This document shows, piece after piece, positions 2,806 to 11,887 of a stretch of 11,887 nucleotides of DNA. This DNA is from Clostridia bacterium (GTDB lineage: Bacteria > Bacillota > Clostridia > Oscillospirales > Acutalibacteraceae), in NCBI GenBank assembly GCA_017624735.1, contig JAGAMK010000057.1, forward strand, positions 1 through 11,887, written 5' to 3'. The translations under genes and the position numbers were made by a program. Below the pieces are notes generated by a model. It was not told where the DNA came from, did not search any database, and worked only from the letters and a program-made list of their open reading frames with translations. The stretch's first letter is position 1; every line of letters begins with the position of its first letter.

Positions 2806-4047
2806 GTGAAAATAAAACAGGTTATCAAAGAAACAGGTCTTACTGACAGAGCAATAAGACTTTATATTGAAAATGACCTTGTAAAACCCGAATGTGACGA
2901 AAATTACAATGGCAGAAAAAGTATTGACTTTTCTGAAAATGATGTTTAACAACTAAAAAATATCGCTTTGCTCCGTAAAGCAGATTTTTCAATTCAAGAA
3001 ATCAAAGCCTTGCAAATGGGTGGCGAAACTGCACAACAAACAGTTAAAGAATACATAAACAGAACAAACGAAAAGATACGGTTCAATAGTGAAATAATTG
3101 AAAAAATCGGCACTCTTGCAAACGAAGAAAATATCACAGTTGAAATAATCTGTGAAAGACTTTCAACCAATTTAGCGGACGAAAAAGTACCAACAGAAGA
3201 CATGGAACTCTCACCCAAGGAACAGAAAGAGAAACACGTTTTTACAGCAATTTCTGTAATCGGCATGGTGTTGTCGTGTGGTTCAATGATACTGATACTA
3301 TTGCTGGTTGTGTTTGGATTTGGATATAAATATACCGAGTTCCTTCCTTATGATACAGATTTTGTACGTAAACTGATTTTTTATCCGATACAATACTTTT
3401 TTTTAATACAATTTGTGTTGTGTTTAATAATATATTTGTTCTGTAAAAAGAAGAAAAAAATAGGCAAGAAAAAAGATAGAAAAAAAGCTCTATGCATTTT
3501 TATTACAATTTTATGGGTAATATCATTGCTATTCTCACCATTCGCATTTCTGTTACATCTTATAGCTGGATATTGCTCAATAACATCTAATCCCAATAAC
3601 TATTTAGTGGTGGATGAAGAATATTTGAAATACGAGTGGGAAGAAATTTTTCAAGTTTTTCCATACAAGATGCCTGATTCAGTAAAGCAAATTGTGTATA
3701 GTAAAAACTCTACAACCAAGTATTTTTATGCTTACTCTGATGAGTTTTTAGACGCTTATAGAATGGATATATATGCAGAGTGGCAGCTTGACCATAATAC
3801 GGAATCAATATATGAAAGTGATTATGAAAAAGAAAAGCAAAGAATACTAAGTAAAGATAATATTGTCTGTATAGAGTCTATGGGAGATTGGCAGTGTGTT
3901 CATTTTAAAAATAAAAGAGATGTTACAGAGGCTATGTGCGATTATGAATATCTGTTTTTTGCCTATAATGATGAAACACATACCGTAAGATATATTGCTG
4001 AGTTTGGGTATAAAACAGACCCATATCACTTACAATTAGATTGGTAA
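2806..4047 (+). pseudogene. MerR-family HTH regulator fused to a 3-TM membrane region and an uncharacterised ~150-aa C-terminal domain. The frame is interrupted by one in-frame TAA at 2947-2949.
   Basis: From GTG 2806: VKIKQVIKETGLTDRAIRLYIENDLVKPECDENYNGRKSIDFSENDV*QLKNIALLRKADFSIQEIKAL. This is one continuous MerR HTH-wing-helix motif in the same frame (pos mod 3 = 1) as ORF-track 2968..4047. No SD precedes TTG 2968. Hydrophobic segments: VFTAISVIGMVLSCGSMILILLLVVFGFG, LIFYPIQYFFLIQFVLCLIIYLF, ALCIFITILWVISLLFSPFAFLLHLIAGY. Confidence 0.7.
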
Positions 4048-4122: not shown

Positions 4123-4203
4123 TGTAGGGGCGGATGCCCACATCCGCCCGCAATAAGTTTATATATAAACCAAAACGGGACGATGTGGGCATCGTCCCCT
4201 ACA
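4123..4203. repeat. 81-bp composite palindromic (REP/MITE-like) element: two 28-nt inverted arms, each itself a 9-bp GC-rich hairpin, around a 25-nt AT-rich spacer
   Basis: Left arm TGTAGGGGCGGATGCCCACATCCGCCCG (4123-4150). The reverse complement of the right arm (4176-4203) is TGTAGGGGACGATGCCCACATCGTCCCG, a 24/28 match. The 4 differences are two compensated pairs within each local stem. Confidence 0.7.
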
Positions 4204-8955: not shown

Positions 8956-9870
8956 ATGACAGTAAAAGAAATGCAGGAAAGAATCTTGCAACTTAAAAAA
9001 GAAAAAGATATCTGTATTCTCGCTCACAGTTATGTTGCTCGTGAGATTATTGAGGTTGCCGACTATACAGGTGACAGTTTTCAGTTAAGTGTACTTGCAG
9101 AAAAAACTAATGCAAAAACTGTAATTATGTGTGGAGTTCGTTTTATGGCAGAAACCGTAAAAATTCTCTCACCTGAAAAAACAGTTTATATTACAAGTCC
9201 TGTTGCAGGTTGCCCAATGGCAGAGCAGATGAGTGTGGAGTATATCGAAGAAATCAAAAAAGAGTATCCCGATTATACTGTTGTGGCTTATATCAACACA
9301 ACTGCAGCACTCAAAACTGTTTGTGATGTGTGTGTAACATCTGCATCAGCAGTACAGATTGTGAAAAAACTCGAAAACGATAAAATTCTCTTTATCCCTG
9401 ACTGTAATCTCGGTGATTTCGTTGCAAAACAAGTGCCAGAAAAGACATTTAAGTTTGTAAACGGTGGTTGTCCAATTCACGGTCAGATAACAAAAGACGA
9501 TGTAAAAAAAGCAAGAGAATATTATCCCGATTCACTTTTGCTTGTTCATCCTGAATGTAAACCTGAGGTTGTGGCAGAGGCAGATTATGTCGGCTCAACA
9601 ACAGGTATTATGAAATTTGCAAAGGAAAGTGACCATAAGAATTTCATCATCGGTACAGAAATCAGTATTGCAGAATCTTTGCAGTATGAATGTCCCGATA
9701 AGAATTTCTTTGCACTTTCACCAAAACTCATTTGTCCTGATATGAAAGCAACAACTCTTGTTGACCTTTATAACACAATGCAGGGCAAGGGTGGAGAAGA
9801 AATAACATTAGACGAAGAAACAATTATAAAAGCCAAAAAATGCATTGATAAAATGCTTGAACTTGGGTGA
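8956..9870 (+). CDS. nadA: Quinolinate synthase NadA ([4Fe-4S] enzyme of de novo NAD synthesis)
   Basis: ILAHSYVAREIIEVADYTGDSFQLS, and three cluster-ligand Cys contexts: VAGCPMAEQM, NGGCPIHGQ, LICPDMK. Also LLVHPEC. 304 aa, typical of the short NadA type. Confidence 0.92.
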   Translation: MTVKEMQERILQLKKEKDICILAHSYVAREIIEVADYTGDSFQLSVLAEKTNAKTVIMCGVRFMAETVKILSPEKTVYITSPVAGCPMAEQMSVEYIEEIKKEYPDYTVVAYINTTAALKTVCDVCVTSASAVQIVKKLENDKILFIPDCNLGDFVAKQVPEKTFKFVNGGCPIHGQITKDDVKKAREYYPDSLLLVHPECKPEVVAEADYVGSTTGIMKFAKESDHKNFIIGTEISIAESLQYECPDKNFFALSPKLICPDMKATTLVDLYNTMQGKGGEEITLDEETIIKAKKCIDKMLELG

Positions 9871-9874
9871 CAAT

Positions 9875-10897
9875 ATGAACAAAGCAGTAATTGCTATGAG
9901 TGGCGGAGTGGATAGCTCCGTCGCTGCTTTACTTATGAAAAATGAAGGCTATGCCTGTGTCGGCGCTACAATGCAACTCTATTCCGAAGGGGATTGCAGT
10001 GATGCAAAAGCAGTTGCCGATAAGCTCGGTATGCCTTTTTATATTTTCCCACTCAAAGAAGAATTCAAAAAACAGGTTATTGATAAGTTTATAGAATTTT
10101 ATGAGAATGGCAAAACCCCAAACCCATGTGTTGAGTGTAATCGTACACTTAAATTCGGTGCTATGATGGACAAAATGCAGGAGTTGGATGCCGATTTTGT
10201 AGTTACAGGTCATTATGCTCGTGTAGTTTTTGAAAACGGTGAGTATAAACTCAAAAAAGCCGTTGATGAGAGCAAAGACCAGAGTTATTTTCTCTATATG
10301 CTCACCCAAGAACAATTAAAGCACATCAAATTCCCATTGGGGGAATACACGAAACCCGAAATTCGTGAAATCGCAGAAGAAAATGACCTTATTACTGCAC
10401 GAAAAAAAGATAGTCAGGATATCTGCTTTGTACCCGACGGTGACTACGTGAGCTTCATTAAAGGATATAACGGAAAAGAATATCCCAAAGGTCAATTTAT
10501 GCATAAAGATGGCTTCTCATTCGGTGAACATAAAGGTATTGTAAATTACACAATTGGTCAGCGTAAAGGTCTTGGAATTGCCTATAAAAATCCACTTTAT
10601 GTGCTTAACATTGACCCCGAAACTAACAATGTAATTTTAGGGGATAATGATGACCTTTTCACAGACGAGGTAAGTGCAAAAAATGTGAACATAATCAGCG
10701 GAAAATTACTAACAGAGCCCATCCGTGTGCTTGCAAGGGTGCGTTATCGTCATAAAGAGCAGCCTGCAACTGCATGGCAGACAGAAGACGGAATTTTACA
10801 CGTAAAATTTGACGAGCCACAACGAGCAATCACAAAAGGACAGTCATTAGTAATATTTGATGGTGACGAAGTATTAGGTGGCGGCGAGATTATATAA
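9875..10897 (+). CDS. mnmA: tRNA-specific 2-thiouridylase MnmA (tRNA U34 2-thiolation)
   Basis: PP-loop AMSGGVDSSVAA, catalytic Cys motifs NPCVECNRTLKF and DSQDICFV, GHYAR, DQSYFL. I prefer ATG 9875 (MNKAVIAMSGGVDSS) over the ORF-track start 9845, which lies inside nadA. Confidence 0.93.
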   Translation: MNKAVIAMSGGVDSSVAALLMKNEGYACVGATMQLYSEGDCSDAKAVADKLGMPFYIFPLKEEFKKQVIDKFIEFYENGKTPNPCVECNRTLKFGAMMDKMQELDADFVVTGHYARVVFENGEYKLKKAVDESKDQSYFLYMLTQEQLKHIKFPLGEYTKPEIREIAEENDLITARKKDSQDICFVPDGDYVSFIKGYNGKEYPKGQFMHKDGFSFGEHKGIVNYTIGQRKGLGIAYKNPLYVLNIDPETNNVILGDNDDLFTDEVSAKNVNIISGKLLTEPIRVLARVRYRHKEQPATAWQTEDGILHVKFDEPQRAITKGQSLVIFDGDEVLGGGEII

Positions 10898-10915: not shown

Positions 10916-10947
10916 AAGGGACGAATAACTCGTCCCTTTATTTTTTT
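10916..10947 (+). terminator. Rho-independent terminator ending the Rrf2...mnmA gene string
   Basis: 8-bp stem AAGGGACG (10916-10923) / CGTCCCTT (10931-10938), 7-nt loop, then TATTTTTTT. Confidence 0.8.
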
Positions 10948-11003
10948 ACCGAATACATTCCCAAAAATGCCGAACACTTTTAATATATTGCAAACCGAAA
11001 AAC
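10948..11003 (+). promoter_or_regulatory. Three direct repeats with a CCGAA core (ACCGAATAC, GCCGAACAC, ACCGAAAAA). Candidate LytTR binding sites.
   Basis: Cores start at 10949, 10970 and 10995, giving spacings of 21 and 25 bp. The third lies within the -35/-10 spacer of the downstream promoter. Confidence 0.35.
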
Positions 11004-11016
11004 AAGGTGATATTAT
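10988..11016 (+). promoter_or_regulatory. Sigma-A promoter for the LytTR/membrane-protein pair
   Basis: -35 TTGCAA (10988-10993), 17-bp spacer, -10 TATTAT (11011-11016). RBS AAGGAGG (11025-11031) lies 6 nt before ATG 11038. Confidence 0.5.
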
Positions 11017-11037
11017 ACACTTGCAAGGAGGAATTTC

Positions 11038-11469
11038 ATGAAACTTCAAATTGTAATTGACCCTAATCGTGATGAAGAAATTATTATATATGCCCACGAG
11101 AAAACACCATTAGTGTGTGAAATTGAAGAGCTTGTAAAGAGTCATTCTGTTGACTTAATCGGCTACACCGAAAACGAAACAGTAAAGCTTAATTTGAACG
11201 ATATTTACTGCTTTTTCACAGAGGATAATAAGGTCTATGCACTCACTGAAAATGAGAAATATAGGCTTAAATCAAGGCTTTATCAGATAGAAGAAAGTTT
11301 GAGTGATAACTTTGTTAAAATCAATCAGTCCTGTATAGCAAATATCAAAAAAGTTGACCGTTTCAAAGCAACAGTAGGTGGCTCGTTAACGGTAATTTTC
11401 AAAAATGGTCATATTGATTACGTGTCACGAAGAAATCTCAAAAATGTAAAAGAAAGGTTAGGTTTGTAA
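11038..11469 (+). CDS. LytTR-family DNA-binding protein with no phospho-receiver domain
   Basis: The C-terminal ~95 aa match the LytTR domain pattern: IYCFFTEDNKVYALTENEKYRLKSRLYQIEESLSDNFVKINQSCIANIKKVDRF...GSLTVIFKNGHIDYVSRRNLKNVKERLG. The N-terminal ~45 aa are too short for a REC domain. Confidence 0.85.
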   Translation: MKLQIVIDPNRDEEIIIYAHEKTPLVCEIEELVKSHSVDLIGYTENETVKLNLNDIYCFFTEDNKVYALTENEKYRLKSRLYQIEESLSDNFVKINQSCIANIKKVDRFKATVGGSLTVIFKNGHIDYVSRRNLKNVKERLGL

Positions 11470-11470
11470 T

Positions 11471-11887
11471 ATGAATAAATATGTAAAAGAATTTTTCCAC
11501 CGCGGACTTATGTTTAGTGGTTTTGGTCCAATAATTTTAGGCATAATATATTTTATACTCTCAAAAACCGTTGATAATTTCGCATTGAGTGGTGGTGAGG
11601 TGTTAGCTGGAATTGTTTCAACTTATCTCTTGGCATTTGTTCAGGCAGGTGCAACAGTATTTAACCAGATTGAGCATTGGTCAACTGGAAAATCTCTGCT
11701 TTGTCATTTGTCAACAATATATGTTGCATACTCTCTTTGCTATGTGGCAAACACCTGGATTCCATTTGAACCAAAAGTCCTTTGGATTTTCACAATAATT
11801 TTTATGATTGTTTACTTTGTCGTATGGGGAATTGTTTATATTTCAATCAAAGCCACAAGCAAAAACTTCAATGCAAAACTAAAATAA
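11471..11887 (+). CDS. Small 4-TM membrane protein, DUF3021-like, the usual partner of stand-alone LytTR regulators
   Basis: 138 aa with four hydrophobic helices: GLMFSGFGPIILGIIYFILS, VLAGIVSTYLLAFVQAGATVF, LLCHLSTIYVAYSLCYVANTWI, VLWIFTIIFMIVYFVVWGIVYISI. The start is 1 nt after the LytTR stop. The DUF3021 assignment is from memory of the family, not a search. Confidence 0.6.
   Translation: MNKYVKEFFHRGLMFSGFGPIILGIIYFILSKTVDNFALSGGEVLAGIVSTYLLAFVQAGATVFNQIEHWSTGKSLLCHLSTIYVAYSLCYVANTWIPFEPKVLWIFTIIFMIVYFVVWGIVYISIKATSKNFNAKLK

What the first reader, a model, noticed from the sequence alone, without database searches (positions are those of the whole stretch)
11038..11887. Receiver-less LytTR regulator plus 4-TM partner: an HdrRM/BrsRM-like LytTR regulatory system of unknown signal
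- A 143-aa LytTR DNA-binding protein without a REC domain is followed 1 nt later by a 138-aa four-helix membrane protein with almost no soluble loops.
- This two-gene layout matches the LytTR Regulatory Systems described in Streptococcus mutans (HdrR/HdrM, BrsR/BrsM). In those systems the membrane protein holds the LytTR activator inactive until an unknown cue releases it.
- For this clostridial pair the inducing signal, the regulon and any kinase independence are all unknown.
- The pair has its own promoter and strong RBS.
Basis: partly seen in the sequence, partly recalled or inferred. Interest (0 to 1): 0.6.

Follow-up and report, generated by a model that had tools for sequence, protein, structure and literature searches.

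The report
BrsRM-type LytTR regulator–membrane inhibitor pair
This is a well-preserved but ordinary example of a known two-gene bacterial switch, in which a DNA-binding activator is most likely held in check by a small membrane protein and turns on its own promoter when released.

Summary

**The genes**
- 11038-11469 encodes a 143-aa LytTR protein with no receiver domain (PF04397, 80 bits).
- One nucleotide later, 11471-11887 encodes a 138-aa four-helix membrane protein that is a full-length DUF3021 (PF11457, 65 bits).

**The promoter**
- It has the published LytTR Regulatory System (LRS) layout: ACCGAATAC, 12 bp, GCCGAACAC, 10 bp, TTGCAA, 17 bp, TGaTATTAT.
- The repeats are 88-94% conserved in 11 related species, against 61% at neutral sites.

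**Linkage**
- 20 of 22 DUF3021 genes in an unbiased phylum sample have a LytTR gene directly upstream.
- 79 of 80 related regulators have a DUF3021-like gene directly downstream.

**Classification**
- By size and domain content it is BrsRM-type, not HdrRM-type, because HdrM carries DUF2154.
- The host is a gut Clostridia MAG lineage (Candidatus Fimenecus, Acutalibacteraceae).
- The pair is free-standing, with no conserved neighbour.
- Its own promoter is the only good repeat site in five genomes.

**Still unknown**
- The signal and the regulon are unknown.
- Inhibition by the membrane protein is inferred from S. mutans, not shown here.

This is a new member of a known kind. The scan has noted look-alike pairs in at least three other genomes.

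The parts
10916..10938 (+). Intrinsic terminator of the upstream mnmA gene (AAGGGACGAATAACTCGTCCCTT followed by a T run). It insulates the pair from upstream transcription.
   Evidence: Terminator scan. The upstream ORF is mnmA by Pfam tRNA_Me_trans, 236 bits.
10948..10956 (+). Direct repeat 1, ACCGAATAC. Predicted binding half-site for the LytTR regulator.
   Evidence: Read from the sequence. Mean pairwise identity is 0.875 in 11 orthologous promoters, against 0.61 at four-fold degenerate sites.
10969..10977 (+). Direct repeat 2, GCCGAACAC. It lies 12 bp after repeat 1 and 10 bp before the -35.
   Evidence: Read from the sequence. Mean pairwise identity is 0.943. The CCGAAYAC half-site persists in relatives down to about 50% regulator identity. 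It is the only 0-1-mismatch paired site in each of five genomes.
10988..10993 (+). -35 hexamer TTGCAA.
   Evidence: Promoter scan. Pairwise identity 0.97 across orthologues.
11008..11016 (+). Extended -10 element, TGaTATTAT, 17 bp after the -35.
   Evidence: Promoter scan, with 'TG before second hexamer' scored yes. Pairwise identity 0.93.
11026..11031 (+). Ribosome-binding site AGGAGG, 6 nt before the regulator's ATG.
   Evidence: Read from the sequence. The 5'UTR and RBS block is 0.94 identical across orthologues.
11038..11469 (+). Gene for a 143-aa LytTR transcription regulator with no receiver domain. It has an N-terminal extension of about 35-45 residues followed by the LytTR domain.
   Evidence: PF04397 at 80.2 bits. 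The AF2 model has pLDDT 90.3. It superposes on the B. cereus LytTR domain 3D6W (TM 0.91, rmsd 1.4 A) and on AgrA 4G4K (TM 0.82). dN/dS is 0.08.
11471..11887 (+). Gene for a 138-aa four-helix membrane protein of family DUF3021, the predicted membrane inhibitor and sensor. It starts 1 nt after the regulator's stop codon.
   Evidence: PF11457 at 64.9 bits, full length. The AF2 model has pLDDT 94.3 with four long helices. Hydropathy and positive-inside charges fit. There is no PDB relative by sequence or by fold. dN/dS is 0.14.

Best explanation
The two genes form a free-standing LytTR Regulatory System of the BrsRM (DUF3021) type.

**Shown here**
- A LytTR DNA-binding protein with no receiver domain is encoded 1 nt upstream of a four-helix DUF3021 membrane protein.
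- They form a terminator-insulated two-gene unit.
- The promoter carries two conserved 9-bp direct repeats (ACCGAATAC and GCCGAACAC), spaced 12 bp apart and ending 10 bp upstream of a TTGCAA -35.

**Inferred from the S. mutans systems**
- In the resting state the membrane protein holds the regulator inactive at the membrane.
- An unknown cue relieves this. It is probably an envelope or metabolic stress.
- The freed regulator binds the two repeats, probably one molecule per repeat on the same face of the DNA. It then helps RNA polymerase at the adjacent promoter and raises transcription of its own operon (positive feedback).
- The inhibitor is made from the same transcript, with gene spacing that fits translational coupling. 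It therefore rises in step and resets the switch.

**Candidate contact surfaces (inference only)**
- On the membrane protein: the conserved N-terminal helix and the near-invariant VFNQIE-x-W loop between helices 2 and 3. On a positive-inside argument both would face the cytoplasm.
- On the regulator: the N-terminal extension of about 35-45 residues that lies outside the canonical LytTR domain.
For: - **Domains and architecture:**
- **Promoter geometry:**. It is identical to the pattern in Table 3 of PMC6193735.
- **Repeats under constraint:** identity is 0.875 and 0.943, against 0.61 at four-fold sites, 0.65 in the 12-bp spacer and 0.39 in the 5' flank.
- **Geometry kept in divergent relatives:** a 45%-identical paralogue-type locus has ACCGCTTGC-12-ACCAAATGC-10-TTGAAA. 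Across 79 loci, at least 8 of 9 repeat positions match in 24 of 79, against 6 of 315 control windows.
- **Linkage:** 14 of 14, 20 of 22 and 79 of 80 loci, with gene gaps of -14 to +2 nt.
- **No kinase partner possible:** there is no receiver domain. The only other LytTR protein in the genome is a normal REC-LytTR regulator beside a GHKL kinase on another contig.
- **Genetics of the class:** deleting the membrane protein induced all five S. mutans LRS operons, and HdrR bound its operon repeats in EMSA (PMC6193735). Membrane sequestration is reported for HdrRM by Xie et al. 2020, as cited in PMC13384398.
Against: - Nothing was measured for this pair.
- The complex could not be modelled with the tools at hand.
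- Direct sequence comparison with S. mutans BrsR and BrsM was not possible.
- The membrane protein's cytoplasmic surface is very small. How it would hold a 143-aa protein is unclear.
- No second binding site was found in five genomes, so no output beyond the operon itself is visible.
Confidence: 0.75

Rival explanations
1. The pair is a closed loop in which the DUF3021 membrane protein is itself the regulated product. It could be, for example, an envelope-protective or transport-related protein. The LytTR protein would then be a one-component activator that senses the cue directly, and the membrane protein would be an effector rather than an inhibitor.
For: - The operon's own promoter is the only 0-1-mismatch paired repeat site in each of five genomes, and weaker matches occur at the rate of the control pattern.
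- No neighbouring gene is conserved across 80 loci.
Against: - In S. mutans, deleting each of five LRS membrane proteins induced the operon, which fits an inhibitor (PMC6193735). At least two of these, BrsM and SMU_1069c, carry DUF3021.
- The near-obligate pairing and overlapping or abutting genes fit partner proteins made in fixed proportion.
- Operon repeats in S. mutans differ from the repeats at regulon targets, so a scan built on operon repeats can miss real targets.
Confidence: 0.12
2. The regulator is a repressor or an architectural DNA-binding protein. The repeats would then serve negative autoregulation rather than activation.
For: - The promoter has a good extended -10 and a 4-of-6 -35. 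It might therefore fire without an activator.
Against: - The repeats end 10 bp upstream of the -35 and do not overlap the core promoter. That is the position used for activation in the characterised LRS and in AgrA-type promoters.
- A third partial repeat inside the core promoter (10994-11004) is not conserved above the neutral level.
Confidence: 0.06
3. The pair belongs to a mobile cassette, a phage, a defence system or a holin-like lysis module rather than to a chromosomal sensory system.
For: - A 13-mer flanks the unit on both sides.
- A mobile element abuts the unit.
- There is a weak sub-threshold match of the membrane protein to a phage holin family, at E 0.03.
Against: - The shared 13-mer is the left arm of two copies of one terminator hairpin.
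- The mobile element is a separate 278-bp MITE-like insertion in the loop of the downstream copy.
- mnmA - pair - GH2 synteny is kept across close species, and presence tracks a subclade.
- No defence model gives a convincing match. The membrane protein has no significant phage-family match, and the regulator's PHROG matches are unannotated LytTR-type families.
Confidence: 0.03

Closest known systems
BrsR/BrsM (SMU_2080/SMU_2081) LytTR Regulatory System of Streptococcus mutans
   Same: - The regulator is a LytTR protein with no receiver domain and of nearly the same size (144 vs 143 aa).
- A small membrane protein with a full-length DUF3021 match is encoded directly downstream (148 vs 138 aa).
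- The promoter has 9-bp repeats with a 12-bp spacer just upstream of the -35.
- PMC6193735 describes this as the most widespread LRS type.
   Different: - The repeat core here is CCGAAYAC, not ACCRCTTAT.
- The spacer to the -35 is 10 bp here and 8 bp in brsRM.
- No bacteriocin genes or other repeat-bearing targets were found.
- Sequence homology to BrsR and BrsM themselves was not tested.
- The host is an uncultured gut member of the Acutalibacteraceae.
- BrsRM activation is linked to purines and to tilS, mnmE and prfC mutations. Nothing is known here.
HdrR/HdrM (SMU_1854/1855) LRS of S. mutans
   Same: - The logic is the same: a LytTR activator, a downstream membrane inhibitor, and positive autoregulation through operon repeats.
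- It is the system for which EMSA and, in a later paper, membrane sequestration were reported.
   Different: - HdrM is 228 aa and carries DUF2154, not DUF3021.
- The window's membrane protein matches only DUF3021.
SMU_1070c/SMU_1069c-type LRS, and the DUF3021-type pair of Staphylococcus aureus (SACOL_RS12395/RS12400). The S. aureus BrpR/BrpS pair is a further putative LRS.
   Same: - A DUF3021 membrane protein lies downstream of a LytTR regulator.
- The S. aureus BrpR/BrpS pair is linked to cell envelope and biofilm phenotypes (PMC13509338).
   Different: - SMU_1069c has only a partial DUF3021 match and a 175-aa regulator, and its operon includes ABC transporter genes. The window's pair has no transporter.
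- Whether BrpS is the same protein as the DUF3021 protein named in PMC6193735 was not checked.
ECF sigma factor / membrane anti-sigma factor pairs (an analogy, not homology)
   Same: - A transcription activator is held inactive by a co-transcribed small membrane protein.
- The system has a basal off state and positive autoregulation (PMC6193735 discussion).
   Different: - The proteins are unrelated.
- The activator is a LytTR DNA-binding protein that acts from upstream repeats, not a sigma subunit.
AgrA/ComE/LytR-type two-component response regulators
   Same: - They share the LytTR DNA-binding fold.
- Binding-site geometry is also shared, with repeats phased 21 bp apart.
   Different: - The window's regulator has no receiver domain and no adjacent histidine kinase.

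Membership tests
LytTR Regulatory System (LRS; Zou et al. 2018, PMC6193735) | Soluble LytTR-family regulator without a receiver domain | tested here: met
   PF04397 at 80.2 bits over residues 47-141. No Response_reg hit. The remaining 46 N-terminal residues are too few for a receiver domain. The LytTR fold is confirmed.
LytTR Regulatory System (LRS; Zou et al. 2018, PMC6193735) | Small polytopic membrane protein with DUF3021 or DUF2154 encoded immediately downstream of the regulator | tested here: met
   PF11457 at 64.9 bits, full length, with a 1-nt gap after the regulator gene. The model has four long helices.
LytTR Regulatory System (LRS; Zou et al. 2018, PMC6193735) | Conserved regulator-then-membrane-protein gene order across genomes | tested here: met
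   14 of 14 loci in the genus. 20 of 22 DUF3021 loci in an even sample of the phylum. 79 of 80 loci selected through the regulator.
LytTR Regulatory System (LRS; Zou et al. 2018, PMC6193735) | Two 9-bp direct repeats separated by 11-13 bp, ending about 10 bp upstream of the operon's -35 | tested here: met
   ACCGAATAC-12-GCCGAACAC-10-TTGCAA. The repeats are conserved above the neutral level and the geometry is enriched in divergent relatives.
LytTR Regulatory System (LRS; Zou et al. 2018, PMC6193735) | The membrane protein inhibits the regulator, so its deletion induces the operon | not testable with these tools
   This needs genetics or reconstitution. It is inferred from the S. mutans data.
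LytTR Regulatory System (LRS; Zou et al. 2018, PMC6193735) | The regulator binds the operon repeats and activates its own transcription | not testable with these tools
   This needs an EMSA or a reporter assay.
BrsRM-type LRS | Regulator of about 144 aa with a membrane protein of about 148 aa carrying a full-length DUF3021 | tested here: met
   The window has 143 aa and 138 aa, with DUF3021 positions 3-130 of 130. Sizes and domain span for BrsR and BrsM come from the S3 Table of PMC6193735.
BrsRM-type LRS | Detectable sequence homology to S. mutans BrsM and BrsR | not tested
BrsRM-type LRS | Control of further promoters, such as bacteriocin genes, through LytTR repeats | tested here: inconclusive
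   No second paired site was found in G000 or in four congeners. Targets may use repeats that differ from those of the operon.
HdrRM-type LRS | Membrane protein carries DUF2154 (HdrM, 228 aa) | tested here: not met
   Only DUF3021 is matched, and the protein is 138 aa.
Two-component LytTR response regulators (AgrA, ComE, LytR, BtsR) | N-terminal receiver domain and a cognate histidine kinase | tested here: not met
   There is no receiver domain. The NCBIfam equivalog scores of 17-26 bits are far below cut-offs of 246-400. The neighbours are mnmA and a GH2 gene.

The most novel reading that the evidence does not exclude
The pair is a closed, self-contained circuit whose only direct target is its own promoter. 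The DUF3021 membrane protein would then be both the brake and the physiological output, for example an envelope-stress protein that is made in bursts. This would make it a minimal 'sensor equals effector' variant of the LRS scheme.
Probability: 0.12. Interest if true: 0.55.

Novelty: new member of a known kind. Interest (0 to 1): 0.25.

Why it matters
LytTR Regulatory Systems are widespread, yet they have been characterised mostly in Streptococcus mutans, and their natural signals are largely unknown. This instance adds little conceptually. It does show that a BrsRM-type system with a shifted repeat sequence (CCGAAYAC) is stably inherited in a lineage of uncultured gut Clostridia. It is also unusually compact and clean: two genes, about 90 bp of promoter, and terminators on both sides. 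That makes it a convenient candidate for reconstituting an LRS in a laboratory host, to study how a four-helix membrane protein with almost no soluble surface can silence a DNA-binding protein.

Tried and rejected
1. **Mobile cassette idea.**
   - The 13-mer AAGGGACGAATAA occurs only twice in the genome, once on each side of the unit.
   - It is the left arm of two copies of the same terminator hairpin. The downstream copy is split by a 278-bp MITE-like element.
   - Synteny is conserved in close species. Rejected.
2. **Patchy distribution.**
   - The pair is found in 12 of 24 sampled congeners, which looked patchy.
   - The five high-quality congeners without the pair that were tested have mnmA only 49-61% identical. 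Carriers have 93-95%. Presence therefore tracks a subclade.
3. **Third partial repeat** (ACCGAAAAACA, 10994-11004). Its conservation of 0.69 is close to that of the other spacer, 0.65, and not far above the 0.61 at four-fold sites. It is probably not functional.
4. **Search for regulon sites.**
   - A PWM scan gave 29.7 bits for the pair's own site and 18.6 bits for the next best.
   - Two degenerate patterns and a 2-mismatch pattern in five genomes gave only hits inside long ORFs, or hits at the control rate.
5. **Naive 'best repeat' scan** of the phylum-wide loci. It was not specific, because shuffled sequences often scored as well. A position-restricted test with coding-window controls replaced it.
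6. **The search for related loci with the 21-sequence alignment** failed for lack of a conserved stretch. A 5-sequence alignment worked.
7. **PDB sequence searches** gave nothing for either protein. The membrane protein also has no structural analogue.
8. **Defence and phage libraries** gave nothing meaningful.
10. **Xie et al. 2020 (PMC8177103) is not held**. The sequestration mechanism is cited second-hand.

Full report
**1. The observation**

ORF listing and the raw sequence show ATG 11038 to TAA 11469 (143 aa) and ATG 11471 to TAA 11887 (138 aa), separated by one base.
- The first protein matches Pfam LytTR (PF04397) at 80.2 bits, E 1.4e-22, over residues 47-141, and nothing else above threshold.
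- NCBIfam matches only the C-terminal DNA-binding parts of BtsR, LytR and AgrA, at 17-26 bits against cut-offs of 246-400. It is not one of those response regulators and has no receiver domain.
- The second protein matches DUF3021 (PF11457) at 64.9 bits over the whole model.
- Upstream lies mnmA (tRNA_Me_trans, 236 bits) with an intrinsic terminator at 10916-10938.
- After the terminator comes a promoter-like TTGCAA-17-TATTAT with a TG extension and an AGGAGG ribosome-binding site 6 nt before the ATG.

**2. Structure**

*Regulator.* AlphaFold2 with a 73-sequence alignment gives a confident model, with pLDDT 90.3.
- Its C-terminal 108 or so residues superpose on solved LytTR domains: B. cereus 3D6W at TM 0.91 (normalised to the target) and rmsd 1.4 A, and AgrA 4G4K at TM 0.82.
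- The first 35 or so residues lie outside that domain and include a helix at 24-36. Their sequence pattern is shared by regulators of this kind across the phylum.

*Membrane protein.* The model is also confident, with pLDDT 94.3.
- It has a short helix at 3-15, then helices at 18-33, 41-66, 72-93 and 101-137, joined by loops of 5-7 residues.
- Hydropathy and the positive charges at both termini agree with four membrane spans and both ends in the cytoplasm.
- It has no relative in the PDB by sequence or by fold.
- Across 71 homologues the most conserved stretches are the N-terminal Y-x-K-x-F-x-x-RG-x-x-F-x-G-x-GP and the loop VFNQIE-x-W at residues 63-70.

**3. The promoter**

Read directly from the sequence:
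- ACCGAATAC at 10948-10956, then 12 bp.
- GCCGAACAC at 10969-10977, then 10 bp.
- TTGCAA at 10988-10993, then 17 bp.
- TATTAT at 11011-11016, preceded by TG at 11008-11009.

Zou et al. 2018 (PMC6193735) give this as the signature of LRS operons: 9-bp repeats, most often 12 bp apart, with a strong bias to lie 10 bp upstream of the -35.

In 11 orthologous loci from related species the sequence 5' of repeat 1 is unrelated, with 0.39 identity. The table gives mean pairwise identity for each element of the promoter and for the neutral comparison.

| Element | Mean pairwise identity |
|---|---|
| Repeat 1 | 0.875 |
| Repeat 2 | 0.943 |
| -35 | 0.97 |
| Extended -10 | 0.93 |
| 12-bp spacer between the repeats | 0.65 |
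| -35 to -10 spacer | 0.69 |
| Four-fold degenerate sites of the regulator gene | 0.61 |

- Synonymous divergence among these species is high, at dS about 0.86. The conservation of the repeats is therefore meaningful.
- A third partial repeat at 10994-11004 lies in the -35 to -10 spacer, whose conservation is close to neutral. It is probably not functional.
- A 45%-identical paralogue-type locus keeps the geometry with a different repeat: ACCGCTTGC-12-ACCAAATGC-10-TTGAAA.
- Among 79 further loci with 50-91% regulator identity, a repeat pair with at least 8 of 9 matches at the expected position occurs in 24. The figure is 6 of 315 for control windows.
- The CCGAAYAC half-site persists throughout these loci. 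Repeat 1 often reads CCGCTTAC or CCGTTTAC, which joins it to the common ACCRCTTAY consensus of the published table.

**4. Linkage**

- All 14 DUF3021 loci found in the genus have a LytTR gene directly upstream.
- In an even sample of 401 genomes of the phylum, DUF3021 passes the Pfam cut-off in 23.
- Of the 22 such loci outside this genome, 20 have a LytTR-type gene directly upstream. Three of those are fragmented or truncated. Two loci have none within 1.5 kb.
- In the other direction, 79 of 80 loci selected through the regulator have a DUF3021-like gene directly downstream. Gene gaps are -14 to +2 nt, which fits translational coupling.

**5. Which known type**

The S3 Table of PMC6193735 gives the sizes and domains of the S. 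mutans pairs.

| Pair | Regulator | Membrane protein | Membrane protein domain |
|---|---|---|---|
| Window | 143 aa | 138 aa | DUF3021, full length |
| BrsR/BrsM (SMU_2080/2081) | 144 aa | 148 aa | DUF3021 over 137 residues |
| SMU_1070c/1069c | 175 aa | 148 aa | DUF3021, partial |
| HdrR/HdrM (SMU_1854/1855) | 133 aa | 228 aa | DUF2154 |

- The window's pair therefore matches the BrsRM type in size and domain content and does not meet the HdrRM criterion.
- Direct alignment with the S. mutans proteins could not be done here.

**6. Host and context**

- Record titles of the closest loci name Candidatus Fimenecus. More distant relatives are Acutalibacteraceae and Oscillospiraceae MAGs from animal guts.
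- In the close species the order is mnmA, the pair, then a GH2-family glycosidase gene.
- The pair is found in 12 of 24 sampled congeners. The five high-quality congeners without it that were tested have mnmA only 49-61% identical, whereas carriers have 93-95%. The pair is therefore a trait of a subclade, not a patchy mobile gene.
- Across the 80 wider loci, the 148 flanking genes fall into 102 clusters with no generally conserved neighbour. The pair is a free-standing module.
- This differs from SMU_1070c/1069c-type systems, which travel with ABC transporter genes.
- The genome has only one other LytTR protein. It is a normal REC-LytTR regulator next to a GHKL histidine kinase on contig 24.

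**7. Regulon**

- A position weight matrix from the 22 orthologous half-sites scores the pair's own promoter at 29.7 bits. The next best paired site scores 18.6 bits, and that hit and the other runners-up examined lie inside long ORFs.
- Two degenerate patterns find nothing else outside long ORFs.
- A 2-mismatch search in G000 and four well-assembled carriers finds the pair's own promoter as the only 0-1-mismatch hit in each. The 2-mismatch hits occur at about the rate of the reversed control pattern.
- No second target is therefore visible.
- The caveat is important. In S. mutans the operon repeats differ from those at regulon promoters, the assembly is 97.5% complete, and nothing was measured.

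**8. Mechanism**

- *Shown here:* the architecture, the fold, the conserved repeats at an activator position, obligate pairing, and purifying selection on both genes (dN/dS 0.08 and 0.14).
- *Taken from the literature on the class:*
  - HdrR binds its operon repeats.
  - Sequestration at the membrane is reported for HdrRM, cited in PMC13384398.
- *Inferred for this pair:* the membrane protein holds the regulator inactive. A cue releases it. It binds the two repeats and activates its own operon. The co-made inhibitor then resets the system.
- The cue is unknown. For BrsRM, purines and mutations in tilS, mnmE, prfC and rpoB activate the system.

**9. Verdict**

- The finding is real and correctly interpreted, but it is an ordinary member of a described class, the BrsRM-type LRS.
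- Its particular features are a shifted half-site, a stand-alone layout, and no visible second target.
- The scan's earlier notes list look-alike pairs in at least three other genomes. A sibling note on this window already pointed to the CCGAA repeats.

Noticed in passing
Just beyond the window: G000 contig C49:11908-12045 (L001 2371-2508). Partner end at C37:134742-134878.: A 278-bp MITE-like element is inserted in the loop of the pair's own terminator hairpin. It has 24-bp terminal inverted repeats (GGGGTCTCTCAATTAGGGATTTAA). There are 9 copies, and 17 of their 18 ends lie about 110-190 nt from a contig end, so the element fragments the assembly. For 5 of the 9 copies the two flanks rejoin into a 9-13-bp hairpin stem, so it seems to target terminator loops. 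The element carries its own hairpin and T run. A 53-bp remnant made of two terminal repeats lies at C5:34130.
   Followed up: partly
G000 C6:3135-3258 (L132). Also G016 C30 (L133 3122-3309) and G011 C19 (L134, about 3273-3470).: A tandem array with a 21-bp period (6, 9 and 10 copies) is present at what looks like the same intergenic locus in three genomes. Its unit carries CCGTAMAC, one base from the CCGAACAC half-site. It lies upstream of a DUF5131 gene. The half-sites face away from that gene, and the array ends about 45 nt before its -35. The phasing is LytTR-like, but the layout is not that of a canonical activation site. Which protein binds it, if any, is unknown.
   Followed up: partly
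window 10916-10938, and C49:11895-11907 together with the end of C37: Before the MITE insertion, the two-gene unit was flanked by two copies of the same hairpin terminator of about 24 nt (AAGGGACGAATAACTCGTCCCTTT). In related species the upstream and downstream terminators are of different types, and these types swap places between species.
   Followed up: partly
window about 4177-4203, and at least 16 other places in the genome: A REP-like palindrome, GTAGGGGACGATGCCCACATCGTCCCG, is scattered through the genome, often next to T runs.
   Followed up: no
window 9845-10897 (mnmA), next to the pair: In S. mutans, transposon hits that activate BrsRM include the tRNA-modification genes tilS and mnmE and the translation factor gene prfC (PMC6193735). 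Here a BrsRM-type pair sits directly downstream of the tRNA thiolation gene mnmA. This is probably coincidence, because the synteny holds only in the close clade.
   Followed up: no
G000 C24:41715-44972 (L017): This is the genome's only other LytTR protein. It is a 232-aa REC-LytTR response regulator that overlaps a 434-aa multi-span GHKL (HATPase_c_5) kinase gene. A gene for a secreted protein of more than 330 aa runs divergently from them.
   Followed up: partly
L025, L027, L028, L029, L032 (phylum sample); L024, L037: In other lineages a third gene follows the DUF3021 gene. In some loci it encodes a protein of about 365-390 aa with a repeat-rich N-terminal half (G-N/D-x-Y/F-x-A-G motifs) and a multi-span C-terminal half. 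In others it encodes an ABC-transporter ATPase. These may be outputs of those systems. The window's pair has neither.
   Followed up: no
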